A stretch of DNA of 64,000 nucleotides. Source: Chrysomallon squamiferum. Its lineage: Eukaryota > Animalia > Mollusca. The notes under the pieces are model-generated. The model saw nothing but the letters and a program-made list of their open reading frames with translations. It was not told the DNA's origin and searched no databases. The first letter of the stretch is position 1; the number at the start of each line of letters is the position of its first letter. This document shows, piece after piece, positions 1,006 to 59,416 of this stretch. A program made the translations under genes and the position numbers. The DNA lies in contig CM022665.1 of assembly GCA_012295275.1 (NCBI GenBank), forward strand, positions 9,362,001 to 9,426,000. Reading direction: 5' to 3'.

Positions 1006-1087
1006 TATTTTGGATGTTATTTTGGGCGAGGCTAATGCGTCATTGATAGTTTATAAAATTGTTTCGTGTTGCATTTATTTTGTAAAA

Positions 1088-1992
1088 ATGAGCGCAGATA
1101 CTGAGCAAATATATCAGAATGACCAAACGGCCGAAAAGGACAATGATGACCCTAACCAATGTAATTTTGATCTCTATATAAAGGTAAGTTAATTGCAGTG
1201 TTTTCAATCTCGCTTTGATGGCGGACTACTGGGTATTGTTGCCGACGGATATCCGATACTATCTTAGTTCATGGCCAGCATTCAATGGCGGATTTTTTTC
1301 AAAGCGTATGATCACCGATTTTGATGATGCGGGATTGTTGCGATTTACAAACGTGAAACGATTAAGGACATTTTGCTAAAATAATCTGAAAATAAAGTGC
1401 CATTTCGTACTATTATCAACCACTATAAAGTATAATAACACTTTTTAACAGTATAACGACTATTTTTAATATTTAGAACAAGACTAAATCTAATTACATA
1501 ATTTAAAACTACCGTAATGCAATATCATTAACTCGGAATAATGCATTTATGTTATGTCAGGTATATACACTCGTGTTTTTTGTTCATATTTTCATAATTT
1601 TTTTCAAATAATTCAGAGTTCATCCTACAATAACAATTTACAGATTTCATTTACAGGGGTGTGGTCAGAAATTTTTAATGTTTCCTTAAATAATTTTTTG
1701 TGGAGTTCCATCATAATGATAATCGGTAATTATATATGAAGGGAATACAGAACCTAAGATTATAATTTAAACTATTTTGTCGTAATTATAGAGTAAATAA
1801 TGTTATCCATAGTAACAAAAATGTGAATTCAATGTATTGATTTATTCAATTTTTATTTTTTAAAACAATTTATTGAATAATAAAATAAGGAATACGGTAA
1901 TATAATAACACTTTACAATCCCCATAAAATTAAAAGTTTTTATTATTATGATTATTATTATTATTTTTTTTTTTGTTTTAAAGATTTAAAGT

Positions 1993-2029
<37 letters not shown>

Positions 2030-4525
2030 TAAGAGTTGTTACACTGAAGTAAAATAAAACTGCTATTTATTGATGATGGTTTTGTGCAGTTTATGAATTT
2101 ATCATGAATTAAAAATGTTACACCTACATGGTTCATATGCAAATAAAATAAGTATTTAGTCTGAATACACCGGCTGTTTTGTTAGGTCAAATTCTAGGTA
2201 TGTAGAAATTAAGTAAAATTGTAATCAGTATAAACCATGTAGGAATATAGTAATAGTTCATACTTGAATTGGGCTTGAAAATGGTATAGCATCAGACACA
2301 ACTTTCTATTCTGAAATATTGCACCTGGTTAATCTAATAAACTTCCATCATCCAAGATAGCAAACATGTTTTTCCTCTTGGAAAATACATACCTTAAATT
2401 TTGAGGTCCATTAACATAAGCACTGCACATAGAGAACATTTATTTTATTAACATTCTTATATTACATTTTGTAAATATTCTAAAATTAATCCTAATTATA
2501 TAAGGATAGCTCTCAGTAATAAAGGCGGTGTTATCTTTCATAGACTAATTACATAATAAATAGTTGATTGTTACATTTTATTTGGAACTTGTTTTTTTCC
2601 ATATTTTGTTATAAGCTGTCTAGAAATGTTTGTATCATAAATATATACAAATATTTTGAATGGTATTGTGCTAAACTTTTCTTTTTCTTTTTAATTATTA
2701 TTTGTATTTTCAGGCATCACCCATTGACAAAGAGACAAGAGGACCATGTCCACTGTGTCAGCAATGGTTTATGATAGCCTACCTTATGGCTGAAAACCAG
2801 GAAGGGGTCGTCTTCAAGGTTTTTACTGTCCAGGCTGACTGTCCTCCAAAGCTTTTTGTGGACAAAGGTTGGAGCAAGACATTTCCGGTAGTCATTGCAA
2901 AAAAGCCTTGTCGCAACAAAGCAGGACATGACTTGGCAGATGAGATGTTTGACACATTTGAAGAACTGGAGAAATTCTTTGAGGGCATTAATCGATCATG
3001 TCCTGAGTTGAAACGCCACAATGCTCCCAATGCCAATGCTGTTCTTGAAGTAGCAGATATTTATGCTGTGAGTATCTTTTATCTAATGTGTAAAATGTTA
3101 TTCAGGTTACAAAATTCATTTGGCATAGTTATGAACATGGTTCATTACCAAATGTTTAAAATACATATAATTGCATATATCACTTACGCTACATGGATTA
3201 GATTGGTTATGCTTATACAAAACTAATAAACTTATTTATGTTCATGTTGAACAAAAAAACATTAAAAATTATTTTCTTCAGCCACCCCTCTATATTTCTT
3301 CAGCAGTGATAAAAAGCCTGATTATATAGGTAAACATGATTGAGTTAAATAAAACAATTATTGACATATAGATATTATGAACTGTAATGTTATACTTAAA
3401 ATTCATATTTTTGACACCAGCCATTTTCTTTGCCAGTTTCACAAAGAATAAAAAAAAAATGTTCATATGAAGCACATCAGTCCCACATAGTTGTCACTAA
3501 ATCTTGGTATTTCAGTGTTCTACAGCTATTAATTACATTTAAACAATTTGATAATGTCATTCAGTATAAAAATGTATATTAATAATAAGGTACATAGTGC
3601 TTATAAAAGTAGTAGTAAAGCTTTAGGTTAAAAAATTTCAGGAAGAATTATTTTCAAAGTCATTTCCAGGTTGGAAATGGAAACTGTTTTGGATTTCAGT
3701 TTTTCTGAATTTCGTTTCTTCTATTTTTAAAAACAGGTTTTCTGTGGTTTCCTGAAGGGATCCAAGAAACTAACTCAGCTGGAAAGGAAACTTGAAGAAT
3801 TGAATGATTACTTAGAATCAAATGAAGGCAAATTTCTTGTAGATGATGTCTTGAGTTTTGCCGACTGTCACCTTTTACCACGACTGCAGCATCTCAGAGT
3901 GGCTGCTGAAGTGAGCAATATAATTCTGAATTTCCTTTTTTTATTATTTCTTTTTTATTTATATATATATTTATATATACAATCAAAATTATAAAAATTA
4001 TGCTAGTTATATTTGTTTTTTATTGTTTATAGTACAACATTGGGGGGGGTTATCATTTGCTTTGGTATAAAAATACTAATTTTAAAAATAGTTTACCTGA
4101 ATTTATTGGTTAAACAGTCTGTGGCTCTTGTGCCTGTTGTACTTTTGTAAGTATAGTAGATTTTAAGCTAATTGTATTTTTTTTTTTCCTAGAAATACTG
4201 CAACTATCAAATTCCATCCAAGTTCACTGCCTTGTGGAAATATTTGGATGATGCCTACCATCAGCCAGCCTTTATTAACACATTGCCATCAGATCAGGAT
4301 ATTGTGTACAATTATGAAAAGAAAACTGCTTTTCCTCTTCCAAAGCGTGGCAACCCAACACTACAAGCTTTCACTTACACAAAAGATATCCCAGAGGAAG
4401 TCAAAGCAGTTTTAAATAAGAAGACTGATGATCAAGAAGTAATGGAAAGTAATGGAGAGTCTGCATTAAATGAAAATGAAAGTAGCATAAATGAAGATTC
4501 CACAGTTAATGATAGCCCAGAGTAA
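1088..4525 (+). CDS. CLIC: Chloride intracellular channel (CLIC/EXC-4 family, GST fold), 4 coding exons, ~318 aa
   Basis: Exons 1088-1183, 2714-3067, 3737-3910 and 4193-4525, all with GT-AG phase-0 junctions. The joined protein has the CLIC-type N-terminus (FDLYIKASPID..RGPCPLCQQWFM), the GST C-terminal motif FLVDDVLSFADCHLLPRLQHLRVA, and WKYLDDAYHQPAF..TLPSDQDI. Confidence 0.9.
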
Positions 4526-7863: not shown

Positions 7864-9884
7864 TCATTTTCCTTTTTCCTTAAAATAATCAGCTAAAAAG
7901 AACCAAAAAAAAAGAGAGAACATTCAGTTAAGTATCTATTAAACAATTTTGTTAACTGCAAAATAATGAACATGAAAATTGAAGAAAGAAATGCATGAAA
8001 CACAGAAAAAAGAAAACTAAGATCAAGATAAAAATATTAATTTCACACTGAAAAAAAAAGAAAATAGATTACAAATCATATTTCTGAGACAGTCTTCAAA
8101 GAAAAGAGTAAGTTATCTTTTATGCTGGTTAATAATGCTGGTTGACAACCAGAGAAGGATTATGGCTGTAATGGAAAATAATGCAATAGACAATCTGAAA
8201 ACTACTGATCCTGCAGCTTATCATGACCAACACCATTCTTTTAACCAAAGGACTACTGTTTTCATTTTGTCTTATAAAATAATGTTAAAAGTGTATTTTC
8301 TGGTATGGAAGTTACTGATATGAAAACAAAAATAATATATATATATATATATATATACCTAATTTTTCAACTGCCTCAACACATATACCAGCAAACATGT
8401 TTTCCGTATATGTAGCAACAAGAAGCAGAGTATTGGTTTTAACTAGCACTAGGCCATTCTTGTTCTGAAAAATATAAAATGGAATTAGAACAATAACTTA
8501 TGTCAAACTAACAGAATAACCAGTCAGATATTGCACAATGTAATTTTGAGTTACAGCCTATTATGCAGTCCGGTGCATCAATAGATCAATTTTTTTTCCA
8601 CCATAAATAGGTTTGAAAACATCTTGACCCTCATGTCTATATATATATTTTGCTGAAATCGGTCAATAAAACATGTCAAAATCTTAATGAAATTATGCTA
8701 CACACTTATTTTCCTAAGATTCATCTAAAATCTCTGACATCACACCCCTATACATTACATATCACTGATCTCTAGAATGTGGTTTATCTTATTCCAACAA
8801 AACTTGAGTTTTGATAATTTTCACCATGTGACTGGTTATCCTATGTTGCTACACAATTACAGTAATTTGTTATGACCTAAAATAAATAAGAACAGCATGA
8901 AATAAAAAAACAGCTTCATCTAATTATTACAGTAAACTTTGGTAAACTGTCAGCTCTTAAGGCATTCTGATATGTAAATATTATAATAAAGTTATATTTT
9001 TCACCCTGACAAAGCTAACAAAAAGCTTTTTAATTCCATGTAGTTGTAATGAAAAACATTTGATCTCATGAAACTGGTATTAACAGTTAAAAACAGAAAT
9101 TATTGTTAATAATAATATGATTCATTGGTGCTGAACATCCTATTATTTGTATAAGTTAATATAACACTGACAGTTATGCTTACACATTTTGCATATATTG
9201 AATTCCTGTCAGCTCGTACACATTTGTACTGTTGGTCTGAAAAATAGATTCCTTCCTCACGTGTCTGTGGAGGATTTCTAAAAGCATCCAATAACATCTG
9301 GACTTGATCTGGATACAACTGAAAATGTAAATAATAAAGCATGTTCACATAAGAAATTAGTGATAATAATCATCAAAAGAAGGCCCAAACTAATATTATT
9401 ACCAGCTTATTTAATTCTGATTACATCACTGTGTATAATAGTATTTTTTAAAAATCATCTTATCTTTTTTCATATTCAATGTGTCTAACATTTATAGTCA
9501 TTGTAAAATTAAGCAGGGTAGTTAAGGTGTTTAAGAAAACAACATGAAGCAGATGCAATGTTTATCATTCACAGAATCATGGTTTTTTTTGCTAAAGTTT
9601 TTTAGAGTACACAGATACATCTTAATGTTACCCAACACTATCAAAATTAAATAATCTGGATTCAAATGTTTGATTTCAGATTTTAATATTTAGTGCCTGA
9701 ATAAAAATAAAAATAAAATATATATTGCTGTTTTAGAGGACAAGATCAAATATTCAAAATAACATACAGTAAAACCTAGAGAACTGGCTCTAATGCTGCA
9801 GTCTTTGCAGTAGATGATGGCACACTGCTGTACATGGTCAGTGGAAATCAAAGCATCGTGCAGCAAATTTTGAAGCTGGTTCAT
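7864..9884 (-). CDS. PFN4: Profilin-4-like protein, 4 coding exons, 128 aa from the conserved Met
   Basis: Exons 9884-9768 ([31 protein letters not shown]), 9318-9184 ([45 protein letters not shown]), 8464-8359 ([35 protein letters not shown]) and 7892-7864 (ADYFKEKGK*), phases 0,0,1. Sequence resembles vertebrate PFN4 as recalled (REGLYF..YRCVRAD..SLYAK; [15 protein letters not shown]). Confidence 0.9.
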
Positions 9885-9920
9885 TTTGACAGCATCCTGT
9901 GGGGGGGGAACACAAATAAA

Positions 9921-10934: not shown

Positions 10935-10988
10935 CGGAACTCCCTGAATTTTATAATTGGGATTGTTCTGAAGATCTAAATCTGCCAT
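10935..10988 (-). CDS. Candidate upstream coding exon of the profilin-4-like gene (MADLDLQNNPNYKIQGVP)
   Basis: AAAAATGG start context at 10988, 18 open codons, then a strong donor CCG|GTGAGT. It joins in phase 0 to the profilin acceptor at 9896 (DAVK-MNQLQ..). Confidence 0.5.
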
Positions 10989-12941: not shown

Positions 12942-13866
12942 GTCAGAAAATGTCTCACTATGGGCCTCAGGTAAAGCCTTGGTTCTTGAATTAGGCTGGA
13001 AAATCATTTACAGATAATATTTATTCACATAAATTAATTTTTTGAAGTTGTCTGAAAGTTTAACTTTGTGATGCTGAAAACTATACATTTCTGAATAATG
13101 ATACATATTATTATTACTCTGTACAAGAAGTTAAACAAAAACAAAAAAAGAAAAAATGATGATAATAATAAAAAATATATATATAAATAAATAAACTAAT
13201 TAATAATAATAATATAAAAAAATTTTTAAACATTTTTTGTAATTTTTTATTATTATTATTATTTTTTTTAAATTATACATTCAACAGTTTTGTTAATTTA
13301 TACACTAAAAATTTCTAACACTGAAAAATATAACTGTCTAATAGTAAAAAATTATAAGTTATATTTTCTGTCATAAAATGTCCTGCTAAGGTGATCAAAG
13401 AATAAAACCAGACAAAATTGGATCCAAAACCAATGTACTTATGAACCATAACAGCACTGAAACCAGTGACATTAACACTTTATATTTTATTATAAAAAAT
13501 ACTTACTTTAGCTCTACTCTTAGTTGTTTCAGGCTGAACTGTGGTATCTAAAGTATCCTTTAATTGTAAAATAACATTTTAATATTAGATTTATTAAGTA
13601 GATCATGTGTTAAATCCTATCATTCTGTAAAATAATTATTTCTTAATAAAGTATTTGATTTTTATTATTTAATATCAGTTTTATTAAATGTATCATATGC
13701 ATTCAAAATATAATCATAACTAGAGATCAGACAGGTATAATACTTGAAAAGACACCTTGGACCATTTTAGAAAATTTGTATTGACTGAAAAATTATAAAT
13801 TAATTGCATGAATTCATCTATGTCAAATTAATAAATAAAAATTAATATTGTTTTCATACTTTAATT

Positions 13867-13921
<55 letters not shown>

Positions 13922-16900
13922 AAGCAAAAGTAATTAATTTGAACATTTGTTGTATATGACCAGTTACAAAAAAAAAAAAAAAAAAAAATCATGAACATAG
14001 AATAACATGAATTTTTGGCATGGAACACTTACTGATGATTTGTCACTATTAAGTTCAGATGAATCAGGCTGAAAAGTAACATTTTAATAATCATAGCTGT
14101 GTTTATTAATATGAGCCAACTAAAATCTTGCTTTGTTGTAAAATAAATACTGTGCAAGTACACATTAAGACATAGGCTACTTTCCAACATTTAATTATGA
14201 CTTTATTATTAATATTTTAAGTTAAACTAGTGTTCAGATCCACGAAAAATTAGGTCACTTGAATAATTTTGGATGAAAAGTATTGTGATTGTTTTACTTA
14301 AGAATATTCCTATCTTACTGAAAATATAAAATCAAATAAACAAGATTCAGCTTTTGAAATCCACTGATTCCTAGAGAGAGTAACAAAATAATTGACTTAA
14401 AGCTGCTGAGATAGAGTTATAAAAACAAAAATAGAACTGTTTGTAAGAAATACTTACTATTGATGTGGGAGGAGCCTCAGATATTGAAGTAGCCTGAAAA
14501 GTAACATTTCATTAATAATTGTATAGAGTCTTCATGCCACTTTATCCATTATTTGTCATTTTTAATTGCATTAAAAAAAGAAGAAGAACGAACTAAAGAA
14601 ATTAACTTTTAAAAATATTTGTGTATGCTTGAGTGACTAGAAATACTTTTGTAAAATCTTCTTTAATATTAAATTCATTACAAAGGATTCTTGATGAATG
14701 TTTGTGTCATGTGTGTGGGTGGGTGGGTGTCTGTGTGCATACATGCAAACTTACTGCAGATCGAGAATAAGACTTGATAAGTGATTCAGTCTGAAAAACA
14801 ATATTTTAATAACAACTATGCAGATTTATACAATAAATTATAAAAATTTCAAGACTGTGTAACATTAGAACACACCAAAGTAAAGTTTTATTTATTGTTA
14901 CATATATATATAATTCTCCATATAATTCTCCAATCTTTTAAAAATTATATACTTTATAAAATCAAATACTTGACAATATTTACAACAACTAATGTTTAAT
15001 GAAAGCCCAAGTCCTTAATTAACTAATAGAATTTGTGAATCAAAGCACTTACTATAGCTTTTGTGGAAACATTGGCTCCTAAACCAGACTGAAAAACAAC
15101 ATTTCAGTAAGAACACATAAGTTTTGTAAACAATAAAAATATCTATCCACAATACAAATCAATAAAACATTTCTTAAATTACCATAAATTAGCAAATATT
15201 TTTATTATTGTAAGAAGGACAAATAATATAAAATGAAGTTAATGAAAATATTCAGTTAAAACAAATAGTTTTAAAAAGCAATATAAATATGTTACAATAT
15301 TTGTTTGATTATTAACACAGGCAGAACATTACAGAAATACATGCACTTACTTTAGTGATTGAGTGAGACTTTGATCTTAACCCAGTCTGAAAAATAACAT
15401 TTCAGTTTTATTTCTCCGCACTGATAATAACTAAACAGACCCATCAATTTTATAAATTAAAAAAAAAAAAAAAATCTATATATTATAAATAATAAAATAT
15501 CTATATAACCACATATACAAATACATTTATACAGATCAATTAGGTATTTCTTACATTATCTCGTTAGCTTTTGAAGGAACTGCCTGTAGATATAAACAAT
15601 TATTTTTATTATTATAAACTTTGAAGGACCACCAAAACAAAACAATAAAGAAATAAAGAAAGAAAGAAAGAAAGAAAGAAAAAAATGTTACTCTAAAATG
15701 TACAATCATTAACAATAATGTGATTACAAGTATGTCATAATATTTTCAGTAATCAGTGATTAATTTAAATATTTCTTTATTAACTGAGGTTGAACTTGTT
15801 TATCAAAATGCTTACTTTAGGTTGAGAGTGGGCCTTGATACCTGATCCAGCCTGAAAAATATTTCATTAATAACTAAAGCAAACAAACACAACAACAAAA
15901 ATCTCTTCAGTTTTATAAATAATAAAATATCTATCAACATGCATATACAAACACCTGAATGAGTAAGACATTGCTTGAGGATATTTACAAATATTTACAT
16001 TGTTATAAATTTAACAAAAACCAAGAAACAAACAAATAATAATAATAAAAAAAAACATAATTTAAGTATGACACAATATTTTCAGTAATCAATGATTAAA
16101 TTAAGTATAATATGCCATGACCTACTGAGGTGGAACTTGTGTATCAGAATACTTACTTTAATGTTTGAATGAAACCTGATACCCGAAACAGCCTGAAAAA
16201 TATTCAATATTATTATTTTTGTTTTTTGTTAAAAAAAAGCATCAATTTTATAAATAACAAAATATCTACACCTATATAAACCAATCAGGTATTTGTAAAG
16301 TTAAACTGAGCATATTTACAAATGTTTGTGTTATTAAAAGGTTAATAAAGACCACAATAAATAAATAAATAAATAAATAATAAAAATAAAAAGAAAGAAA
16401 ACCAAAAAATAAAAATATATTGAAACAGTTTACAAAAATAACATGCTGATAATTAAAACTATTTAATAATATTTTTTGTAATCAATGATTAAGTAATAAT
16501 TTTATGATTAACAAAAACTGAACATATGAAAGCACTTACTGTGGTTTGAGGGTGAACCTTTGTACCTGGTCCAGACTGGAAAAAAAAGAAAAGAAAAAGA
16601 AAGATCAAGGAAAAGTACTAAATTAAAATATACTATTAAAAAATGATAATAATAATAATAATAATAAAAAAATAACAATAATGAAATTATGAACAGGTAA
16701 TTAAACTCTCATGATATTTGCATAAATAAATCTAAATTTCTTGATTAATTTAGTGGAATTTGTGTGGAATCAAAGCACCTACTTTAATATGAGAAGGAGT
16801 CTTGGCACTTGAACCAGGCTGAAAAATAACATTTCAATAATAACCCCACACACCTAATTTTTGAATGTAAAAAACCAAAAACAAAACAAAAAACAAATTA

Positions 16901-18063
16901 AAAAGTATAAACATTTGACAAATTAATAAATATTTTGTACAAGAGTATAAACAAATTATTTCGTCAAATACTTTATTAAAAGATCTGAAATTATACCTAC
17001 CTCTCATTTTTATTGATATTAATTATTATTAATTTGGACACAAAAGGGGATAAAAAAAAAAAAAGAAAGGCAAAGAGAATGATCAAGAAAAAGAACTAAA
17101 TTAAAAATATGCTATCAAAAAAAAAAAAATATATATATATATATAATAATAATAATGAAATTATGAACAGTAATTAAACTGTCATGTTTCGTTAAATAAA
17201 TATAAATTTCTTGATTAATTTAGATTGAATATCTATGGAATAAAAGCACTTACTTTAATATGAGGATGAACCTTGATTCCCGAACCAGTCTGAAAAATAA
17301 CATTTCAATAATAATCCTACAGACCTTATTTTCTTTAGTTCTTTCTAAGTTTCTGGATGTAAAATAAACAATTTAAAAATAATAAAAAACAAAATTTAAA
17401 AATTTAAAAAAATTAAAACATTAATAGAAATTAATAAATATTTTGTACAAGAATATAAACAAATTATTTTGACAAATACTTTATTAAAATACCTGAAATT
17501 ATACTTGACTACTTTTTATTGATATAATTTATTATTAATTTGGACAAACAAAAAGAACAGAAAAATGATGTTTCAGAAATATTCTTCTCTAAATATATAT
17601 ATGCATGTGATTAGAACTACTTATTAATAGTACTTACAAAATTCAGTCAAGGAGTATTTTTTAATTAGTGAAAATTCAATATATATTTTACTGTATTACC
17701 AGTCTTTTAACTTGATTTAATTTTTAATTAATGGCAATATAACATTATTGTACTTTATCATTAGATTCAAATTAAACTATAACCTGAAAATAAAAAAAAA
17801 TTAATTTTGGTTATTTGTTTGTACAACCATAAATAAAGATGTAACCAATAAAATCAGTGGCAATTGCCAGTAGCCTTCATCTTTACTAAAAAAAAAATTA
17901 AAACATGTCTCCAAAGTGATTGTGCTAAATTATTTATTTCAATGTAGAGAATTCCCTTCCTACTCCAACATTATTAATACAACAGTAAAAGAAACAACAG
18001 AAGAGTCTTTAACAAAGAATTACTTACATGGGTTTTATTAACTGGACTCCCAGGTGATTTAGT
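12942..18063 (-). CDS. Array of 13 symmetric (phase 0-0) micro-exons encoding a S/T/G/K/H/P-rich 12-aa repeat region
   Basis: In transcription order: 18063-18028 TKSPGSPVNKTH; 17289-17254 TGSGIKVHPHIK; 16818-16783 PGSSAKTPSHIK; 16575-16540 SGPGTKVHPQTT; 16192-16157 AVSGIRFHSNIK; 15851-15816 AGSGIKAHSQPK; 15386-15351 TGLRSKSHSITK; 15088-15053 SGLGANVSTKAI; 14790-14755 TESLIKSYSRSA; 14493-14458 ATSISEAPPTSI; 14068-14033 PDSSELNSDKSS; 13533(or 13557)-13507 (DTLDTTVQ)PETTKSRAK; 12995-12942 PNSRTKALPEAHSETFSD. All have GTAAGT/GTAAGC/GTAGGT donors, and all but the 13507 exon have a TTTT(C)CAG-type acceptor. None has a stop in phase 0. Confidence 0.8.
13870..13918. repeat. (AC)n microsatellite
   Basis: Read directly. 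Confidence 0.95.
15440..17550. repeat. Tandemly duplicated ~340-480 bp exon+intron units carrying the micro-exons
   Basis: About 16603-17040 aligns by eye with about 17081-17545 (shared GATCAAG..AACTAAATTAAAA, AATGAAATTATGAACAG, AATTAATAAATATTTTGTACAAGA). The blocks TTTTATAAATAATAAAATATCTA and AATATTTTCAGTAATCA recur in the 15.5-16.5 kb introns. Confidence 0.8.
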
Positions 18064-18184: not shown

Positions 18185-19604
18185 GGCTTAATTTTTTTTT
18201 TTTTTGGAGTGTGTTATTTTCAAATGATGTAGGAAGATAATTAAATGAAATGTTGTCACTTTTCACTAGCAGATACGGAGCTTGTTCTATGGATCTCTAT
18301 ATCCGGAGTGGTTATCTAAAAACCCCACACTTCTTGGCAGTGCAATGGTAAATATTTTAACATTCTGTATAATACTAAGTAACATACATTTATTCTGGTA
18401 AATGTAACATCATGGATTTTTCAGTAACAAATATCTAATTCAATCCCTATTAAAAGGTTTAATTCTAATTTCTGTGATATTATAAGAAAGGCACTGAAAA
18501 ATGCTGCACTTCGTATACTAACTGCACCACACTTATTAGACTGTATTGGGTTTACACAAATCTGAATTCCATTTGACATGTTTAACCAAGGAAATAGTGG
18601 GAATCTTAAACAAGCTTGTCCTAGAAAATACACTGCCTACATTTTTGCAGTAAGAAACTACTTCTCAGATGATCTCAATAAATGTGACTGTTTTTACATC
18701 TCTGATTTGCTGCATATAGCCAGTGTATATTTTTAATTAGTGTTCATGAAACAACTGAATATGAAATAAAATTTATATTTAATTCTGCAAATACAAAAGT
18801 ATAGTTTCAAGGGTGGCACGAGGCATGATGGTATGGGTGCTATATATGGGCTGATATGTTATGTAATATACTGTTACAGCATTTATGGGATCATGTAATA
18901 TTTATGTCATGAAGCTGTGTACCGCTTAAAAGTTACATGTAATGTACTAATGCAGCTAATTAGTTATAATAACAAATATTTTCATTATTATTATTATTTT
19001 TATTTTATATCATTATACGCTGTTTAATATGTCATTTTAATATTTGTTACATTTTCGTTTTATAAAAAGGCACATATGTGTGTTTACAAATACACGCACA
19101 CATACACACAGTATGAAAGACACAGAGGGTGACGGTGAGAAAGAAAATGAGCGTATAAATAGTTTAACTGAATGTGTATACAAGAACAAGTTTGGAAAGT
19201 TAATAAAATATGAATATATACGATAAGTACTATTAATAAAAATGTATTGGTACATACTAGACACAAAGCTTGCTTTTATTTTACCATCTGTTAATAATCT
19301 TCACATATATATATGTTACATTACATACAAACAAAGTGTGTATTGTTGCAATGCAGTCTGTTATCTTTCGTTTGATTAATTGATCGCCTACTAAGCTACG
19401 TGATTGATTTTGCTGGAGAATAATTTCAATCATTTTAATTTAAAGCCATTTCTCCTAGTATTTGTTTATTATGCTAGCAGTATACGAAAAAAATGCAAAA
19501 TAAAAGCATTTCATTGTCAATACAGTGATATATGTAAGAATTGTAAGGTGCTACGATAAACTGCAATGATAAATGCTTTGTGACACTAATATGAAATGAT
19601 AGAT

Positions 19605-19860
19605 CCCCGTTGTCACGCGGAAGTTTGGCAACAACACCGACTGTGAGTATTTATAGCAAAACTTCAATTATGGACTTAAAAAGTAAAATGATATTTTCTT
19701 GGTGCAGAATAAACGAAGCATTACCTGTCAGTTTTGTGTTTTGTTTTGATTTTTCTCACAAAACCAAACAACTATTTACATCCCAAAATATAAACAAAAT
19801 AATTGTCTTTGTCAGCCATATATTTTGATAATTGGCCTTAAATTTAATCACGTGACACCC
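19605..19860. promoter_or_regulatory. Putative promoter / non-coding first exon region for the minus-strand micro-exon/profilin locus
   Basis: E-box TCACGTGAC 19848-19856, CCAAT on the minus strand 19831-19835, YY1-like ATATGGCTG (minus) near 19813-19821, minus-strand donor ACAG|GTAATG at 19725/19724, Ets core CGGAAGT 19618-19624, plus-strand donor ACT|GTGAGT at 19642/19643. Motifs only. Confidence 0.35.
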
Positions 19861-20820
19861 CCAAATTACAAGCATCAACATTATTTGTGTCAAAAAGAAA
19901 GAAAGAAAGAAAGAAAAGAAAAGAAAAGAAGAGAAAGTTAGAAAAATGAAAGATTAAAGGAAAACAAGTAAATCACTTTATTTACCATTATTCCCAATTT
20001 TTAAAATCTGATAATTTTTAACCTAACAATAATTATATATATACTAAAATAATTGAATTATTAGTAGAAATAATTACTAATAAATTCTTTCTCCACACAC
20101 ACACACACACACACACACACATCCATATGAATTATATCGCATACAAATACAAAGAAAAATAAATTTTTAAAAAGTGAATGCCTTACAAATTTCTGAACAA
20201 TTTATGTTAACATAAAACTGTAATAAATATTCAGGAAGCGATATACATGAATATGTTATGTTTTTAAAATTAAATATTGAACCATAACGTTTTTTAATTA
20301 TTCCAAAATTCAGCATTTCATTTACTGTTAATAAACAAACAAACAAACAAAAAAATAAATATTTTCCAAATAATAATAATAATAATAATAAATAATATAA
20401 CAATAATAATAAGAATTATTACCTTTATTAAAAGAAGGATATGTAATATAAAATGTAATTTATAATATACCAGTTGCAAGAACGAGAAAAATGGTTAGTA
20501 CAGAAAAGTGTGAACAAAACAAATATCGAAAGAAAAATAAACAATCACTTAAAATAATAAAGTATATGATTTATACTGATTTCAGATAATTAGCAATTAA
20601 CTGAAGTAGCTTTTTGAAAAATCTTACCAACACATACTGTACTATTTAAAAATAATGAAAAGAGAATTATTGAAAAGAAACCAATAAAATAAATTAATAT
20701 TAAGCTGTTACCATGTTGCTGGGTTTTTCTTTCAGTCTTTCTTTCTTTCTTTTTTTTTCTTCTAAATAATAATAATTATTTTATGATTATTCTTTTGTTG
20801 TTGTTGTTCAATAATAATTA

Positions 20821-20890
20821 GTCCCGCCCCTTAACAGTTGACCCTTGACCCGTTTCTATGTGACGTTGTTAGTATACAATATGGCGGACA
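20821..20890 (+). promoter_or_regulatory. Putative FAM228 proximal promoter (GC box, X-box-like and YY1-like motifs)
   Basis: CCCGCCCC at 20823-20830, GTTTCTATGTGAC and GTTGTTAGTATAC at 20852-20877, AATATGGCGG at about 20878-20888, all 110-170 nt upstream of the ATG at 20997. Confidence 0.45.
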
Positions 20891-20996: not shown

Positions 20997-21267
20997 ATGA
21001 CATCCCTGTTATGTGTGAAACATTTAGGAGGTAATGTACAAGTTCATAAGCCAAAGGAAGCTGTGCCAGTCGAAGAAGATGATTCGTACAAACACGTAAG
21101 TGATTCACAGTTGAAACGGTTTACACCCAGGAATATGTTAACTTGAATAAAATTTGTTAGCGTTGATAAAATGCTTCAGAAAGTTTGTTTTCTTCAAATG
21201 AAATGTATCTATCAAACATGAATTATAACAAACATCAGTTGTATACGTTACTTACACATTTATTTAA

Positions 21268-21304
<37 letters not shown>

Positions 21305-24300
21305 AAATAAATAATAAATTAAATAATAAATTATTGTATTTTTCATAACAGTATCCAGTGTGTGTGTGGTGAATGGCTAAACTATCTGCCTTTTGCTGCT
21401 ATTTCATCATACAAGGATATTATATGTCATATATAACATATTATTTTTTAAAAATATCATTCTTCATAAAAGTTTATAAAAATAAGTAAATAGTGAAAAT
21501 CAAGTTATCTTTCAAACTGTATTAAATATTTCATTTGTAAGTTACCAGCATTCTACTTTAGAACTAAGTAAATATTTTGTTTCACAGTATCTGATGACTG
21601 ATCTTTTGGCAAATGTTTCTTTCTTTTTATTAATTTTTTGTTTGCCATATTGTGTGAATCTTCAGTATTTTAATGTTTTCAGTTAATTTTTTATTTTATT
21701 TCTGACCTCTTGAACTTTATCACACAAATTAGGTTACTAAACTGTATACGCTGAAAATACACACACAAACATAATTAAAATTGTTCAATAATTTTTACTT
21801 TAAAATATATTTGTTTCAGTTTATAATCAGAAGTAAAAAGTCTAAAAGTCACCCTGGATCATCTAAATACAGCCTTTCAGAAGCAACAAAAAGTCCGAGT
21901 AGTAATTCCTTTAGAGTGCAAGACTGGTTGAGTGAAAAGTCAATTAAGGATTTGCAGGTTAAAATGCTACTTTTACATCTATTAAGTGAAATTCATGCTA
22001 ATTTTGTATATATTGAGATTTTAATTTATTTTAAAAAAAAAAAAAAAATTTTATTATTCATTTATATATTTTTAAATGTATTATTGTAATTTTTTTTGTT
22101 TGTTACTGTATTGTGGAAAAAAGCTGATGATATATTTTTTTACCTGTTGTTTTATTTAACTTTTTTGATATCATACTTTAGAAATTATAATATTATTTTA
22201 AAAGTACTTTAGAAATTATAATATTATTTTAAAAGTAGGCTACATGTCAGTATGGGTTATTTTTAATTATTAATTTCAGGAAAGATCTGATGACGAATCC
22301 AAATCAGCTAAAAAGCTTTATAATCCCATACTTGAGACAGAAAAAACATTTGTACAGGTAAGATAAAAATACGGGAAAAGATTATTGTATAAATAGATGC
22401 TGCATAATTGGTAAGTAAAATATTGTTTGGATTGTAATATTTTCTTTGAAGGAATGAGAAGTTATTTTGTCTGTGTTACTGGGGGGGGGGGTATTTGGAA
22501 AAAATATAAAGTGCATTTTATTGTTTCATATAATTATTTTTAGAAAATAAACATTTTTACATTTATTTCATATTGTGACATCTTAATGACACAGTGTATT
22601 TGCTAAAGTAGAATAATAATTTTTAAAATTTGTAATATACTATATTGCAGGATTTAGACAATTATGTACAATATGAAGATTTACTAGCTTTAAGAAAAAA
22701 AGAGCTTTTGCACAAACGATGGACAGATAAAGTGTATGAACCTCTAAGAAGGGAGATCATTAAGGTGATGGACAGTTGCAGATGGCAGGATGTAGACAGA
22801 AGAAAACGAATATTGCATAAGCAGTTCTTGGAATTTGTGAATGAAAAGGTGAATATTTATGTACACATATTACTATATACAAATTCTACAACATTAATAT
22901 GTAGAAACGTTTATTTTTCTTTATGCCATTTAAACGATATTTTTAATGTTAGCATTTTAACATTTATTTAGAGATTAAAAAAATAAAAAAATATTGGAAA
23001 CAATTTTAAATGACTGGAAGTTGACTGCTTTCAGTACAGTTATTAGATGCACATAATGTAAACTATTTGTATGTAATTATATTTGATGTTTTTCTTATTG
23101 TCTATTTTAGGGACATATTTTCCTTGAAACATTAAATCCACAAGAGTATTATGCCCAGTCCCTCAATGGTTACAGACCAGCACCTATCAAGGTATATTTT
23201 ATAATATCATAACCATTTTGTTTCAGTATTTTTCTAATAACAATAACTTACCTCCAAATTATTTCATTTGCAAGTCTGAAACTAAAAGAAAAAAAGAATT
23301 ATAAACAGCATATATAATGTTTTATGTAATGTGCTAAAAAGCAAAGGTGACAGCACAGTAATGTTTATCTTTTCTCTGTGTTCACAATTAAATACCATGA
23401 ATAATTACAGGAAATACTGATGATAATATGAAAGTATGTCATCAGGTTTGCTCTCTAACACTCTCTACATTTGTAACTGTTCATATAAAATATGTCAAGG
23501 TAATGATTTACACCATTCATTCATTCTATCTTTAAAACTACAGGTAGAGGTAAACAGACTTCAGGATCCACTCATATCACAGAGTAGAGAGCGATACCAG
23601 GAGGACAGAACCATTCTGCAGTGTCTGACTGGGGAGAGGTTCACTGATGAAGATATTGAACAGGTTCGGATGCCTCTTGAGCCATTAGTTCCCCTGGGAA
23701 GAAAAGATGGAAACAGTCAGTCCTGGTTGTCTATGCCTCTTTGTGACATTGAGAGTCCAGCAAGGCGAGCAAGCAGGTAAAACAGTGTTTGTTTTCTTTC
23801 TCAATTTCCTATAATGATTTTAAAATATGCAAGGAGAAGATTGTGATAACTTTACTTTTAGAATAAGATATTTTATGAAAATATATTTAAGGTAAAAAAA
23901 AAAAAAAAAAAAAAAAGTAAAAAACTATTAAGTGTTTGGAGACTTATGACTACTGGCATTGTTTGCCAAAAATAAATGCTGGAGGAAAGTTTGATCTGCT
24001 TAAAAGTCCTCCAATTAATAAAAAATTGTTTTGCCTTTCTATCTGTCAGTGTCTGTCTGTCTCTCATTGTCTGTCTGTCTCTATCTATCTATCTATCTAT
24101 CTATCTGTCTATCTCTATTTACCTGTCCCTCTATCTATATATGTATCTATCTTTCTTTCTACGTTTCTGTCCTCAAAAAATATTATGCCCATGCTTATGA
24201 CATTAGTTTTTTGCTTTTGATAAGCAGTATATATGTTTTTGATTTTATTTAGTGGTGACAATCAAATTAAAAAATTTTCTGTAATATATTGTGTTGATTC

Positions 24301-26841
24301 TGTTATTGTTTCTATGTATATTCAGAAATATTTTGTTACTATCCATAAAGATAAATTTTGAAAGATAAATTTTGTTTAATTTGTTTAATACAGTTATATT
24401 TCTTAAGAATAAAAATATTCATTTCTATAAGAAAATAGTATGAGAGAATTTTATTTAACACAACGATAATTTCATATTAAAAGATTGATTAATAATGACT
24501 ATTACTCAGTCACTTCTGTTTTTATTGTAGAATATTTTTATTGGATGATGGAAATGTAAGCATAATAAATAAAAACAATCCATCCATGTCATTTAAAATT
24601 ATTTCTGTTCTATTTTTCTTTGCTGTTGCAGTTTGTTTATTAGAATATTTTAATCTTCAATGGTTTCTTTTTCTGAATCTCTTTGAACTCGAAGCACAAC
24701 ATCTTTGCAGGATGCTTGCACATTTATAGATGTTTATTCTTATTATATACCTATTTCAGATCCAAAATTGACAAACAAAATAAGTAAGATGTGCTCTTTA
24801 TTAGAAATAGAAGCTTTTGAGAATGTTAAGCATTAGCAGTACTTGGAAAATGGAGATATACTTACAAATTAGTTGTTTCTGGGATTTGTTTTTTGATTTT
24901 TTTCTCGCTTTTTAGTAATTACAACCAGGGGGTTACATCCAGTGCATAACCCCTAACATTTTTTTCCATAATTATACTCATTTGATATTGAACATTAAAC
25001 CCATGACAATTATGGCATCCCTATTATGTGACATTCTGCATCCATCTCATAAAATGATGGAAACAGAATGGTTGTAGTTCTAATAATCATACTTTTAGAT
25101 GCTATTTTGGAAAATTAAACTAAATAAATATAAACTATATTAATTTCCTCATCAATTTTTAGACCAGCTAGAATGATTCCATTGGAGAAGGTAACAACAG
25201 ATATTTTTGTGTTTAGAATAAGCAGTTGAAGCAAATGTTCGTAAGTCACTTGAATTCCATGTTACTGTATCTTCACATTATTTGTCTGACAGTTGGAAAA
25301 GGTTTATGGGGCTTTGTAATAAGTAAGGCACTATGACAACATCAGGATTGCTTATTAATAACCTATAGTTCTGAAACATTTTACTTTTATCTATTTACTC
25401 TGTTCCAGTTCTGGTAATTTATTAACCAGTTTTAAAACATTTATCTTTTCCTATATTTTTAGATACTGATTAACATTATTTTAGTTTATATTTTTAGGTA
25501 TTTTCTCCATTTAACACACGTCAAAAGTAAATGAAAATATTAATTACATAAAGTATTTTTGATATTTTAATTTCATTTTAATTTTATTTCTATTACTGTT
25601 TGTTTCACTGTGTAATGTTATATTAATAGTTACATTACAGAGGTATTCTGTTGTTGCGTTTCTCTTTATTTTATTAAAATTCACACACTGTCACAAAGTA
25701 TTGCTAAAAGGTACAGGTGTTTTAATTCATGTTAAATAATAAAGATGAAGTTTTATCTTTAAAATAATAACAACAAAATCTGGATAGATTAAAAATAGTC
25801 ATATATAACAAAGAAAGTAATATTAAGTAATCAATTATTTATATATACATAATGTATGAATTGTTCTTTTTAAGAACTTACACATGCTTAACGTACAAAT
25901 AAATATATTTTATACATTTATCTTCCTAGTAATAAATAAAAGCATGTCCTTACCTTCAGTAATTACTTTTATTAAACACTGAGTCACTTTTCTATATTTG
26001 TGGTAAGAAATCATAGTTTTGTGGCACTTTATATAACTCAAAAATTAATATAAAACGTAAAAAGAGAAATACCTAAAGCTAAAAATATTTGCTTTTAATA
26101 AAAATAACTCTTTGAAATTATATCATGTTCAACATAAATATTTATTTATAAATAAAATTTAAACAGAAATAATATGATCATATTTACATTTATCAATATT
26201 TCTTTGCTACACCGTTAAATTCTTATTTCATTTTTAAACTTAAAGCACTTATTTCTTTTTTTCCAAGTTGATTTGGTGACTTTTAATTTAATTTTTATAT
26301 TTTTTAAATGTTATTTCTATAGTTTTAAATTTTTAAATAGTTTATTTGATATTTTATTGACTATCAGTTCATCCTCCTCAATTGCTTTGACTCTTATTTA
26401 GTTTATATTAAAGCTTTTGAACCCATTTGGTTTAATTAATCTTTTTAACATTTTTATTATTTTTATAATTTTTTTTTTTTAAAACGAGAAAAATGAACCA
26501 TTAGTATTAAAATATTAATTTATTGGTTTAATTCTATGGATGCAACAAAAACACAAATTTTGTTTGGGACAGTGAATTTTTAACAGTTAGATCACAACGA
26601 AGCAGATATCTTTATCACTGTTATTGTTAATTTATTATTAATTACTTTGTACTTTATTTACAGACAAAGAATGCGTGGAATTCAAAGTAAAAGTAATATA
26701 GATTTGGAGAGCTGGTCCAAAACTCCAACTGATGCTGAAATTATTAACAAAGAATGGCAAATTCAGAAAAAAAGAATGTATTCCATTACTCCACCTTTCA
26801 ATGCTCCACCAGTGAAGACTGCAGACAAATTACTAGCATAA
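20997..26841 (+). CDS. FAM228B: FAM228 family protein, 7 coding exons, ~334 aa
   Basis: Exons 20997-21095, 21820-21957, 22280-22357, 22651-22848, 23111-23191, 23544-23776 and 26664-26841 (phases 0,0,0,0,0,2; all GT-AG). The core LALRKKELLHKRWTDKVYEPLRREII..EFVNEKGHIFLETLNPQEY..LQDPL matches the FAM228 core as recalled (RRKEMLYKRW..DPLQKKI..VNKKGNAFIEHYDPKEY). A versus B orthology cannot be resolved here. Confidence 0.8.
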
Positions 26842-29800: not shown

Positions 29801-31241
29801 CATAGCTGAAAACAAATGAGTCTTGTAACTTAATAAAAATTCAGTCCTGCTCAGCATAAGATTGTATTGTTATCCAGAAATTCTTTGTGATCAGAGTGGG
29901 GCATAAATATCAATTTAAAAATATGTACATAGGGTAGAGATGTCTGCTGAGGTTATTATAATAGTGTGAACAGCAAAAAAAAAAAAAAAAAAAAAAGAAA
30001 CAAAGAAAAAAGAAACAAAAACAAAAACAAAGTAATCATGTTAGCATAATCTAGGATTTTCTTACTTTAGGAATGATATGGCCTACACCAAGGAATATTT
30101 CTCTGGGTTAGATCATGATGGTTCTAAGATCTTCAAATTTACCTCGCCCCAATGTTACAATTATTAATTATCAGTTGTAAGACTGAAAGTATATAGTACA
30201 GATATTTAAGCCAAAAATAAACAAGATCAAATAACAAGTAATTCTTGGTAACATATATGTTTTCATTTTTTTATTACCCATAGTCATGATCAACAATTTC
30301 ACATTAAAATCATACCAGCTGCTTCAAGCAGTTTAACCATTTTTATACAAACAATGTTAAATACATAAATGTTTTAAGAGCATTCAGTTAGATTGTAGAG
30401 TTTCTATTTTTCAGAACTGATTTTCTTTCTTTCATATTTATCTTGTCATTTCCTAATAATATATTAGTACTCTGCAGAATATCTGAAAGTCTGATGTTAA
30501 TGATTCAAGCCATTTTTATTGTGTCATTATAAAATAGTCTTTTTGTTGTGAATTAATATTTATAAACTAACTGTATTTAACTCTTTATGGACTTCATGAA
30601 CTTAAAATATCAATAATAATTTTTGTTATTGGCCACTGAAGTTATAAAATGTATTTTCAACTTTCTAGAATGTAAAACATATGACCATTTCATGTTGTTG
30701 ACAGCTGATCCAATAGTACTATTCAATTTTACCTAATAAAAATAATAAATTTAGTGACTTTTAAAATATACCTTTGAATTTTACACAGAATATAATTTAT
30801 GTTATGTTTGCCTGTATTGTATGTACTGTGTCATCACACTGTTGCAGAAGTTTTTAATAATGAATGTTAAAATGATATCAAATCATACATCACATTATGA
30901 CAAAATTTTATGTTATTAAATGTCTCAGTCACAGGTGGGTAACAGTGTCTGTATCCCTAAAAGAGCCTGCAGAAAACAGAATTTTATTTTGACAGAATAG
31001 ATAAACACTGTCAGCTTTGTTTAGCCATGATTTCACAAGACATTAAACTAAATATAATATTCATTATGTTTCTGCAGCAAATATGAAAATACCTCACAAA
31101 AGGGACTTTAATATTTGTATTGAAGAAGAAAAACACGATTCTTATTCCAGAAAAATAACCATGTTAACAATTTATATTCACTGAATATAAACACACATTT
31201 CTTTTTTCTTATATGAACAGAAAAAAACACAAATTTCATTA

Positions 31242-40549
<9,308 letters not shown>

Positions 40550-42390
40550 TCATTTTGTATCATTTGTCTGCTTCGAAACGATCTCCATAGTTATTTGTTC
40601 CCAACACATAACTCTTTGTTCGTGATGATTTCTGTTTTGATAAATACATATACATACATTCAAATAACTTAACCCAAACAAGAAAGTGCTATCCAATTTA
40701 TACCAGTCTGTTTTCGTCTTGAATGCCTGAAACGTATAACGCTGACCTATTTTCGCACATCACGAAAAATCTGTATCAGGATTCCAGACATTCTAAAAAC
40801 AAAGGAACACTGTGTGCTTGGTGCTTCCTCTTTAAACTGTAAATCAATCGGTCTTGTCTGCAAGTGACTGGCGTATTGCAGACACCAGATGTGCACCAAG
40901 CATACATGTATACGTTCACATGCGATAGCAGACGATGCGCCAGAAGCAGAAACGTAGTAACAGACGATATTTTTCTGTGCACATAGGTCGCTGAGATCTA
41001 CGTATCTTGTATAGAGGTCGCCATTCTCAGCATCCGATGACGTTGGAGTTATCGATCTATTTTTCCTCACATGTCTTCTATTTCGATAACGTTCGCCAGA
41101 CGCTCATTGGTTGTTTTGTGCAGCTACGGCATTGACGTCTGCCTGCCTCACATATTTTACTGTTTTCTGTTTACGGTAATCTACTTGAAACGCAAATGAT
41201 TGTCGTCAGCTTCATTTTCATAGGGCATACCTTATACAGTTTTAATACAATATTTTGTAAACATGCTTCAATCAGTTTGTTCTTGCGGAATTAGAAAAAA
41301 TAATAGAACAATATTTATTGTTTAAATATTTTCTCCTAGTACGTCTATTGACTAAAGTGCACATACATGCATGCGCGTACACATACACACACACACGCAC
41401 ACACACACATTATTTGAGAAATAATAATACGCTCATCTTTCCAGTACATTGTTCTGAAGCAAATAATATTAGAAATACAGTTAATACATAAATATGTTTA
41501 AAGAAAAACAACTTTAATTTATTAAAACACATACAGACCAACATATAGACATATATATATATAGACAGATAGATAGATAGATAATAACGATACAAAATAA
41601 TAGTAATAAATAAAAAAAAAAAATAAAAAAAAATAAAAAAAACCTTAAAAGGAAAAATAAATAAATAAATAAATAAGGAGATGAAAAAAAATAAAATAAA
41701 CAAAGGAACGAAATATACATAAAAACTAGATCTTAAGGGCCATCTCTTGAAATACCACGGCTTCCCGATATAATCATGTAAGAGTAATGATTTCACTATC
41801 GCGTCGAAAGGTAGCAATATGCAAATCGACATCAAAAATTGAACGTCGTCATAGAAGCAATCGCTGTATATACGGACGTCATTCCCTGTCGTTATGGCAA
41901 CGAGACGTGTATTGTGTTTATGCTGATACAATTTTTCTACGCTTTAAACAAGAAGGTAAAAAGAAAAATTAAAGAAAAAAAAAATATTTCTAAAAATACG
42001 AAACGTGCATTATATAAATAACGGACTTTGCCTTATTTCCAAATAAAGTAATAACTCCAGACAGGCATTAGAAGTGTATTTGATACCAAGTATATTGATT
42101 TATTTATGTATTAATTTCATCATCATCATCATCATCATTATTATTATTATAATTATTATTATTATTATTATCATCGTCATTATCATCATCATCATTTTTA
42201 TTATCTTTAACATCTGCCTATATCACGTACTTTATTGTTTTTTTTGTTTACAGTAATCTACTTTTACAATAGAATATGTTGGAAACATTGTTCAGTGAGT
42301 TAGTTCATACTGAAATACTACTATTAGTTTTTGTTAAGCACTTTTTTTTTAAAGTTGTTGTTATTATTATCTAACTAAAATATTTATTTA

Positions 42391-49553: not shown

Positions 49554-59416
<9,863 letters not shown>

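What the first reader, a model, noticed from the sequence alone, without database searches (positions are those of the whole stretch)
12942..18063. Hidden array of 13 symmetric micro-exons (eleven exactly 36 nt): a micro-exon-gene-like system
Seen: on the plus strand the pattern ACTTAC-(36 nt)-CTGAAAA (with minor variants) recurs 11 times at 240-780 bp spacing. On the minus strand this is TTTTCAG|36-nt exon|GTAAGT. Two more exons of 27/51 nt and 54 nt follow. All lengths are multiples of 3 and all ~160 codons are stop-free in phase 0 despite the very AT-rich background. Length and splice sites are conserved while the peptides are highly diverged (loose consensus x-G-S-G-I-K-x-H-S-x-I-K). The ORF track shows nothing here. 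Established: long runs of symmetric exons of 36 nt or less define Schistosoma micro-exon genes (MEGs), where exon skipping generates protein variants. Inference: any subset of these exons can be skipped without frameshift (2^13 combinations in principle), so this may be an undescribed combinatorial splicing cassette in a different animal lineage.
Basis: partly seen in the sequence, partly recalled or inferred. Interest (0 to 1): 0.92.

Follow-up and report, generated by a model that had tools for sequence, protein, structure and literature searches.

The report
Micro-exon array extends snail profilin-4
Thirteen tiny frame-preserving exons, which likely arose by tandem copying together with their introns, lie next to a profilin-4 gene of a probable snail; eight are seen spliced in order in RNA without skipping, and the whole block likely joins profilin-4, where it is predicted to add a floppy repeat tail of about 170 residues.

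Summary
The array is real. Eleven 36-nt phase-0 exons plus a 51- and a 54-nt exon lie on the minus strand, stop-free over 167 codons. RNA contigs from 4 of 4 runs (one study) join exons 4-11 in order at GT-AG sites; 0 of 21 possible skip joints appear, though contigs drop rare forms. Flanking introns are homologous, so the array grew by exon-plus-intron duplication. Best reading: a coding, Ser/Thr/Lys/Pro/His-rich disordered N-terminal extension, fully included in the main transcript. The start exon was not found, so a non-coding leader stays possible. It fits the structural definition of a micro-exon gene but not the schistosome family (profilin domain, no signal peptide seen, no skipping seen). 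None of 42 profilin-4 records has more than 47 residues before the core. The scan has noted similar arrays in other genomes (unchecked). Verdict: new variant of a known process.

The parts
18028..18063 (-). micro-exon 1, 36 nt, phase 0 (diverged unit)
   Evidence: splice motifs; inclusion inferred from the 246-nt contig = 30 + 6 x 36
17254..17289 (-). micro-exon 2, 36 nt
16783..16818 (-). micro-exon 3, 36 nt, donor GTAGGT
16540..16575 (-). micro-exon 4, 36 nt
   Evidence: RNA joint to exon 5 in 4 of 4 runs
16157..16192 (-). micro-exon 5, 36 nt
   Evidence: RNA joints on both sides in 4 of 4 runs
15816..15851 (-). micro-exon 6, 36 nt
   Evidence: RNA joints on both sides in 4 of 4 runs
15351..15386 (-). 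micro-exon 7, 36 nt
   Evidence: RNA joints on both sides in 4 of 4 runs
15053..15088 (-). micro-exon 8, 36 nt; holds the only ATG of the block, out of frame
   Evidence: RNA joints; ATG position
14755..14790 (-). micro-exon 9, 36 nt
   Evidence: RNA joints on both sides in 4 of 4 runs
14458..14493 (-). micro-exon 10, 36 nt
   Evidence: RNA joints on both sides in 4 of 4 runs
14033..14068 (-). micro-exon 11, 36 nt
   Evidence: RNA joint to exon 10 and loose end into exon 12 in 4 of 4 runs
13507..13557 (-). exon 12, 51 nt, phase 0; diverged unit whose homologous acceptor is lost and replaced
   Evidence: loose-end letters; unit profile E=0.047; intron 12 homologous to introns 3 and 5
12942..12995 (-). 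exon 13, 54 nt, phase 0; 5' part matches the unit
   Evidence: unit profile E=3e-4; 54-nt form fits the 583-nt contig, 37-nt form does not
10935..10988 (-). conserved alternative first coding exon of profilin-4 (18 codons, phase 0); bypassed by the array transcript according to the length sum
   Evidence: 50-83% identity to the N-termini of 11 mollusc records; 637 versus observed 583 nt
9768..9896 (-). profilin-4 shared exon, 129 nt, phase-0 acceptor, holds the core Met
   Evidence: Pfam PF00235; tblastn with Gigantopelta protein
9184..9318 (-). profilin-4 exon, 135 nt
   Evidence: Pfam PF00235 E=8e-9; 87-89% identical to gastropod profilin-4-like proteins
8359..8464 (-). profilin-4 exon, 106 nt
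   Evidence: the 583-nt contig ends at its donor by length sum
19329..19433 (-). one unproven candidate for the start exon: ATG at 19433 in an AAAATG context, open in phase 0 to donors after 19392 or 19329
   Evidence: not tested by RNA
20997..26823 (+). FAM228B-like gene, head to head with the profilin-4 locus (context, not part of the array)
   Evidence: adjacent accession numbers in Gigantopelta aegis

Best explanation
The 13 units are true phase-0 exons, likely made by tandem duplication of one exon-plus-intron unit, that are spliced in order (shown for exons 4-11) and likely continue in frame into the profilin-4 exons, where they are predicted to encode a disordered N-terminal extension of at least 167 residues. 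Steps: (1) mollusc profilin-4 has a phase-0 acceptor that takes several alternative 5' exons, so a symmetric exon can be slotted in without harm (shown in records); (2) one such exon was copied with its intron, about 250-770 nt per step, and then diverged (homology shown, history inferred); (3) the main assembled transcript takes every exon (shown for 4-11, inferred for the rest) and bypasses the conserved short first exon (inferred from a length sum); (4) the product would be a roughly 300-residue profilin-4 with a basic His/Lys/Ser/Gly repeat arm (exons 1-9, net +16) and an acidic spacer (exons 10-13, net -4) (predicted); (5) the arm most likely works as a multivalent, phosphorylatable tether to anionic surfaces, microtubules or phosphoinositide membranes, the structures where mouse PFN4 acts (inferred, untested, about 35% on its own). 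Symmetry is then mainly the condition that let the array grow, and only potentially a switch.
For: Splicing: 7 of 7 neighbour joints with GT-AG ends in 4 of 4 runs. Link: the 583-nt X1 contig starts at exon 9 and its length equals exons 9-13 plus profilin exons of 129+135+106 nt exactly; variants give 559, 566 or 637. The 246-nt X1 contig equals 30 + 6 x 36 and so ends at the acceptor of exon 1. The three long contigs of X2-X4 have 537-853 letters past exon 11, which the same path takes up. Coding: the joined model is open for 299 codons to the profilin stop; neutral divergence of the unit would give about 5.3 stops, P(no stop)=0.004; 0 of 11 units changed length although they differ by at least 69 substitutions while flanks of close units carry 12 gaps per 37 and 6 per 66 substitutions; exons 12 and 13 have other lengths yet keep the frame, with frame-breaking sites next to them unused; GC by codon position 0.42/0.57/0.23. 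Duplication: intron pairs 68-80% alike. Disorder: 61% disorder-promoting residues, GRAVY -0.79.
Against: No in-frame ATG lies in the 13 exons and the start exon was not identified. No protein with this extension is in the databases searched. ATG triplets are fewer than neutral expectation (1 versus 4.5, P=0.06), which suits a leader. pN/pS among the 11 units is 1.02 (0.59-0.74 for closer units), so residue identity is hardly conserved. The codon-position GC pattern is partly inherited from the ancestral unit (neutral run 0.33/0.51/0.25), and a column-resampling control gave P(no stop)=0.32. The profilin link rests on length sums, not on a read joint. All four runs are one study, tissue unknown. 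The tether function has no direct evidence.
Confidence: 0.68

Rival explanations
1. Regulated or combinatorial cassette: the block is coding, but exons are skipped singly or in groups in some tissues or stages, which tunes the length and charge of the arm, as with the P exons of bird fast troponin T.
For: All 13 exons are symmetric, so any skip keeps the frame. Units 2 and 3 differ more in the exon (10 of 36 sites, 6 of 12 residues) than in their flanks (37 of 288 sites; Fisher P=0.024), a hint of diversification. Intron-retaining side contigs in X1 show that splicing here is not always complete. Only one study was seen.
Against: 0 of 21 possible skip joints among exons 4-11 in 4 of 4 runs, while minor intron-retaining contigs of depth 5-10 did survive assembly in X1 beside spliced ones of depth 31-73. 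Donors are near consensus (11 of 13 GTAAGT). The exon-versus-intron excess is not significant for units 5 and 6 (P=0.44) and AT-rich introns inflate identity.
Confidence: 0.2
2. Spliced but non-coding leader: the block is a 5' UTR (or a decayed coding relic) and translation starts at the core Met, giving the usual 128-residue profilin-4; the repeats would tune translation or mRNA handling.
For: No in-frame Met in 167 codons, one ATG in 501 nt. Many mollusc records are 128-residue isoforms that start at the core Met, two such records in Gigantopelta; the transcript-like loci L001 and L002 have stops upstream of the core exon. pN/pS about 1.
Against: A leader needs neither 13 of 13 lengths divisible by three (three different lengths), nor a stop-free frame that is the profilin frame (P about 0.004), nor the absence of length changes in 11 units.
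Confidence: 0.15
3. A separate small micro-exon gene (MEG-like, possibly secreted) that only lies between FAM228B-like and profilin-4 and ends in an exon of its own.
For: The joint from exon 13 to the profilin exon was not seen directly. A Met-less hydrophobic frame ends at a good phase-0 donor at 20638 and could give a membrane anchor.
Against: The 583-nt contig equals the profilin path to the base; no other acceptor between 12941 and 9900 opens more than 26 codons in phase 0; T-rich DNA gives hydrophobic frames by chance.
Confidence: 0.04

Closest known systems
Internal tandem duplication of symmetric exons encoding disordered repeats (Schad et al. 2013, PMC3632108; passages read)
   Same: Consecutive exons of one symmetric phase, homologous to each other, encoding a disorder-type composition; homologous introns show the duplication.
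   Different: Here the block sits in front of a small, very conserved profilin; units are only 12 residues and strongly diverged; none of 42 profilin-4 records has more than 47 residues before the core Met.
P exons of avian fast troponin T (review PMC7581897; passages read)
   Same: Up to seven lineage-specific small exons encoding a His-containing repeat at the N-terminus of a conserved cytoskeletal protein.
   Different: The bird segment is His/Glu-rich and acidic and is spliced in by tissue and age; this one is mostly basic, 13 exons long, and regulation has not been seen.
Micro-exon genes (MEGs) of Schistosoma and tapeworms (review PMC8293314; bioRxiv 10.1101/2020.04.08.031872; passages read; the original paper was not held)
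   Same: Long run of symmetric exons of 36 nt or less; meets the operational rule (7 or more exons, half under 70 nt and divisible by three, run of 4 or more); hint of fast residue change.
   Different: MEG proteins carry signal peptides, lack outside homologues and vary by skipping; this block likely runs into a profilin domain, has no hydrophobic segment in its known part, and showed no skip joint.
Profilin-4 (mouse and human PFN4; PMC2694148 passages; PMC9481974 abstract and outline) and mollusc profilin-4-like proteins
   Same: Core 114 of 128 residues identical to Gigantopelta aegis profilin-4-like; alternative 5' exons joined in phase 0; neighbour of FAM228B-like.
   Different: A 501-nt micro-exon block in the 5' part. 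Binding to phosphoinositides and not to actin, and the role in manchette and acrosome, are mammalian results and untested for this protein.

Membership tests
Micro-exon gene (MEG) | 7 or more exons, at least half under 70 nt and divisible by three, run of 4 or more (operational rule) | tested here: met
   13 such exons in a row out of at least 18 (13 + 4 profilin exons + at least one 5' exon), if the profilin link holds
Micro-exon gene (MEG) | mainly symmetric exons of 36 nt or less | tested here: met
   11 of 13 array exons are 36 nt, all phase 0-0
Micro-exon gene (MEG) | protein variants made by exon skipping | tested here: inconclusive
   0 of 21 skip joints among exons 4-11 in 4 of 4 runs; contigs drop rare forms; one study
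Micro-exon gene (MEG) | signal peptide, secreted or surface protein | tested here: inconclusive
   highest 19-residue hydropathy in the 167 residues is 0.23; the first exon is unknown
Micro-exon gene (MEG) | no homologue outside parasitic flatworms, no common domain | tested here: not met
   the transcript most likely ends in a PF00235 profilin domain of a gastropod-type gene
Micro-exon gene (MEG) | raised dN/dS between orthologues | not testable with these tools
   no orthologous DNA; among paralogous units pN/pS is 0.59-1.02
Profilin-4 | profilin domain closest to profilin-4-like proteins | tested here: met
   (114 of 128 identical to Gigantopelta aegis)
Profilin-4 | neighbour of FAM228B | tested here: met
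   consecutive accession numbers in Gigantopelta; the human arrangement is recalled, not tested
Profilin-4 | binds phosphoinositides, not actin or poly-proline | not testable with these tools
   shown for mammalian PFN4 only
Tandemly duplicated symmetric exons encoding disorder | neighbouring exons homologous and of one symmetric phase | tested here: met
   exon identities 27-75%; profile finds all 13 and no further unit at E<0.1
Tandemly duplicated symmetric exons encoding disorder | flanking introns homologous | tested here: met
   introns 1/2 75% over 266 nt, 2/3 80% over 206 nt, 5/6 78% over 93 nt, 4/6 70% over 204 nt
Tandemly duplicated symmetric exons encoding disorder | translated, disordered product | tested here: inconclusive
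   open frame and composition fit; start codon and protein not shown
Troponin T P-exon type regulated extension | tissue- or stage-specific splice-in | not testable with these tools
   tissue of the runs unknown; one study

The most novel reading that the evidence does not exclude
A free-living snail has built a MEG-like, fast-diverging 13-exon cassette onto an intracellular sperm/cilia protein, and skips exons by tissue or stage to make a ladder of profilin-4 proteins with graded basic arms: a combinatorial micro-exon code that tunes how profilin-4 holds microtubules or membranes, evolved independently of parasitic flatworms.
Probability: 0.2. Interest if true: 0.75.

Novelty: new variant of a known kind. 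Interest (0 to 1): 0.45.

Why it matters
Profilins are small proteins with almost no extra parts. If the reading holds, the main profilin-4 message in these samples encodes a protein more than twice the usual size, built from exons too small for ordinary gene finders. It is a clean, RNA-backed case of a repeat arm growing step by step by exon-plus-intron copying, with the copies still datable from their introns. It also shows that MEG-like architecture alone does not prove combinatorial splicing: here the same layout is read straight through. That makes a useful test case for whether symmetric arrays arise for variation or simply because only symmetric exons survive duplication.

Tried and rejected
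No genome is held for this window, so paralogous arrays elsewhere in the genome and DNA-level checks were not possible. Search for long profilin-4 proteins (225-2000 aa): 3 hits among 747 candidates, an amphioxus model and two bird PIG3-profilin models, none with this arm. Profile search of 1.84 billion representatives: 864 hits, best 150 listed; a Rozella profilin has a Ser/Thr-rich extension of about 166 residues but no similarity to this one; best E of the arm against the 203 proteins held was 0.35. Gene models often miss micro-exons, so these blanks do not show that relatives lack the array. Metagenome scan: 6 loci, none with a run of equal-length units. None of the alternative mollusc N-termini matched the array by tblastn. 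Donor scoring for the start exon: the matrix had five mis-registered plus-strand sites and was dropped; the redone one (163 GT sites) does not single out a site. Trial coordinates for exon 12 and the short first exon were one base off and were corrected. Column-resampling test for stops (P=0.32) is reported but is weak because it draws from already stop-free columns. Gap counts for distant intron pairs equal the shuffled control (0.18 per substitution) and were not used; only the two close pairs were. The sigma-70 scan does not apply to a eukaryote. Artefact or plain minisatellite: rejected, Tandem Repeats Finder reports no array here and the joints are canonical. Literature searches that found no description of this array or of an extended profilin-4, judged from listings only. 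No fold was run: the arm is not one contiguous frame and is predicted to be disordered.
Full report
Observation. On the minus strand eleven segments of exactly 36 nt lie between a T-rich acceptor ending in CAG and a GTAAG or GTAGG donor, from 18063 down to 14033. The same pattern over the whole window and both strands gives 11 hits at 36 nt and 0-2 hits at each other length from 12 to 120. Two further exons follow, 13507-13557 (51 nt) and 12942-12995 (54 nt). Together they give 167 codons without a stop in frame 0, against 4 and 24 stops in the other frames.

Splicing. Five public runs hold part of the stretch, four RNA runs of one study and one run of unknown kind of another. The four RNA runs, all assembled contigs, were laid on 13995-16620, which holds exons 4-11. 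All 7 neighbour joints appear in 4 of 4 runs with canonical intron ends; 0 of the 21 possible non-neighbour joints appear. In runs X2 and X4 one contig is listed across all eight exons, in X3 across seven (7 records were not shown). The loose end after exon 11 reads into the 51-nt form of exon 12 in 4 of 4 runs. Run X1 also kept three intron-covering contigs of depth 5-10 beside spliced contigs of depth 31-73, so some minor paths survived assembly there; still, contigs drop rare forms, so low-level or tissue-limited skipping is not excluded.

Host gene. Downstream on the same strand lie four profilin exons (9768-9896, 9184-9318, 8359-8464, 7864-7892) and a conserved alternative first exon (10935-10988). 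The core is 114 of 128 residues identical to profilin-4-like of the gastropod Gigantopelta aegis and 109 of 128 to Haliotis. Upstream, head to head, lies a FAM228B-like gene; the two genes have consecutive accession numbers in Gigantopelta. The window is therefore probably from a gastropod (inference). Mollusc profilin-4 records show several different N-termini joined in phase 0 to the same exon. The joint from exon 13 to that exon was not read directly, but one X1 contig starts at the first base of exon 9 and is 583 nt long, which equals 3 x 36 + 51 + 54 + 129 + 135 + 106, ending at a donor; the other options give 559, 566 or 637. By my rough count the chance of landing on one of about four exon ends in a range of several hundred bases is about 1 in 200. 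A second X1 contig is 246 nt = 30 + 6 x 36, which takes in exons 6 to 1 and ends at the acceptor of exon 1. The long contigs of X2, X3 and X4 run 537-853 letters past exon 11, which the same path absorbs, and X3 and X4 have 149 and 47 letters upstream of exon 1. Since these contigs do not break at the shared profilin exon, the array form appears to be the main assembled profilin-4 transcript in these samples (inference). The joined model is open for 299 codons to the profilin stop.

Origin. The introns are homologous: 1/2 75% over 266 nt, 2/3 80% over 206 nt, 5/6 78% over 93 nt, 4/6 70% over 204 nt, and intron 12 matches introns 3 and 5. A profile of the unit finds the 11 exons, the 5' part of exon 13 (E=3e-4) and the 3' part of exon 12 (E=0.047), and nothing else at E below 0.1. 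So equal length and shared splice sites are inherited from one duplicated unit and are not by themselves a sign of a splicing code.

Coding or not. For: neutral divergence of the unit to the observed distances gives 5.3-5.4 stops on average and P(no stop)=0.004 (star-tree model); none of 11 units changed length despite at least 69 substitutions, while the flanks of close units carry 12 gaps per 37 and 6 per 66 substitutions (many gaps lie in runs of one base, so this is rough); exon 12 lost its homologous acceptor and uses one that keeps the frame, and exon 13 uses a donor at 54 nt though a donor-like site at 37 nt would break it; GC by codon position is 0.42, 0.57, 0.23 and 0.15 at four-fold sites. 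Against: no in-frame ATG in the block and no identified start exon (candidates at 19433, 20714, 19988, 19287 and 18523-side frames); one ATG against 4.5 expected (P=0.06); pN/pS 1.02 over all units, 0.74 for units 2-8, 0.59 for units 2-6; the GC pattern is partly inherited (neutral 0.33, 0.51, 0.25); a column-resampling control gave P=0.32. I put coding at about 80%. Units 2 and 3 differ more in the exon (0.28) than in the flanks (0.13; P=0.024), units 5 and 6 not significantly (0.36 versus 0.30; P=0.44): a weak hint of diversification.

How it likely works. The predicted arm is 19% Ser, 12% Thr, 11% Lys, 8% Pro, 7% Gly, with nine His, no Cys, Trp or Met; GRAVY is -0.79, no 19-residue window exceeds 0.23, exons 1-9 carry net +16 and exons 10-13 net -4. 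Mammalian PFN4 binds phosphoinositides but not actin or poly-proline (PMC2694148, passages) and is needed for manchette microtubules and the acrosome (PMC9481974, abstract). A basic, phosphorylatable disordered arm would most simply add avidity for anionic surfaces, microtubules or membranes, with the acidic part as a spacer. This step is inference only; I give it about 35%.

Comparison. The process is known: consecutive symmetric exons are enriched for mutual similarity and disorder (PMC3632108, passages). The nearest worked example is the bird fast troponin T, with up to seven P exons for a His/Glu repeat at the N-terminus, spliced in by tissue and age (PMC7581897, passages). The gene meets the operational micro-exon-gene rule of the Hymenolepis paper (bioRxiv 10.1101/2020.04.08.031872, passages), but schistosome MEGs carry signal peptides, lack outside homologues and vary by skipping (PMC8293314, passages; the original paper was not held); the first is not seen in the known part, the second fails, the third was not seen. 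It should not be filed as a MEG. No supplements were read.

Novelty. Among 42 profilin-4 records the stretch before the core Met is 0-47 residues. Searches for long forms found none with this arm, and six literature searches, judged from listings, showed no description. Because gene models miss micro-exons and no relative's DNA could be read, restriction to one lineage is likely but unproven. The scan holds five unchecked notes on similar arrays in other genomes and none on this genome, which suggests that the kind recurs. Verdict: real, spliced, probably coding; new variant of a known kind; interest 0.45. The bold reading, a regulated combinatorial cassette, keeps about 20% and would deserve 0.75.

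Noticed in passing
window 12942-12995 and 13507-13563, minus: Exon 13 has a donor-like GTGAGA after 37 nt that would shift the frame; exon 12's homologous acceptor has lost its AG and nearby AGs would give 27, 32, 43 or 51 nt. The forms that fit the RNA (54 and 51) both keep the frame.
   Followed up: yes
window 14761-15082, 15357-15632, 15691-15842: Runs X1 and X3 hold contigs that cover introns 8 and 6 (unspliced RNA or DNA); one shows a 4-nt deletion at 15015 against the window, probably an allele.
   Followed up: no
window 20590-20775, minus: A Met-less frame with basic residues and about 19 hydrophobic residues ends at a good phase-0 donor after 20638; if used it could anchor the long form in a membrane, but T-rich DNA gives such frames by chance.
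   Followed up: partly
window 19600-19650 and 20820-20880: Two promoter-like spots with CpG clusters: an ETS-like CGGAAG at 19618 with a plus-strand GTGAGT just after it, and a GC box at 20823 before the FAM228B-like start. Motif names are recalled.
   Followed up: partly
window 15053-15088, minus: The only ATG in the 501-nt block is out of frame in exon 8 and would open a six-codon frame.
   Followed up: partly
window about 1040-4525, plus: CLIC-like (GST-fold) gene pieces: weak CLIC-like_N hit and GST_C hit.
   Followed up: no
window about 31240-40550, minus: Major-facilitator transporter gene pieces (MFS_1 E=7e-8 on one piece).
   Followed up: no
window about 49550-59460, minus: Globin gene pieces (PF00042 E=2e-12 on 53905-54207).
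   Followed up: no
window 61114-61444: Tandem array of a CACTA-type five-base unit, about 330 nt.
   Followed up: no
proteins P0107 and P0202: A Rozella allomycis profilin with a Ser/Thr-rich N-terminal extension of about 166 residues and a hydrophobic start, and an unnamed profilin with a Thr/Ala/Gln/Pro repeat extension: unrelated in sequence, but they show that extended profilins occur elsewhere or that models are fused.
   Followed up: partly
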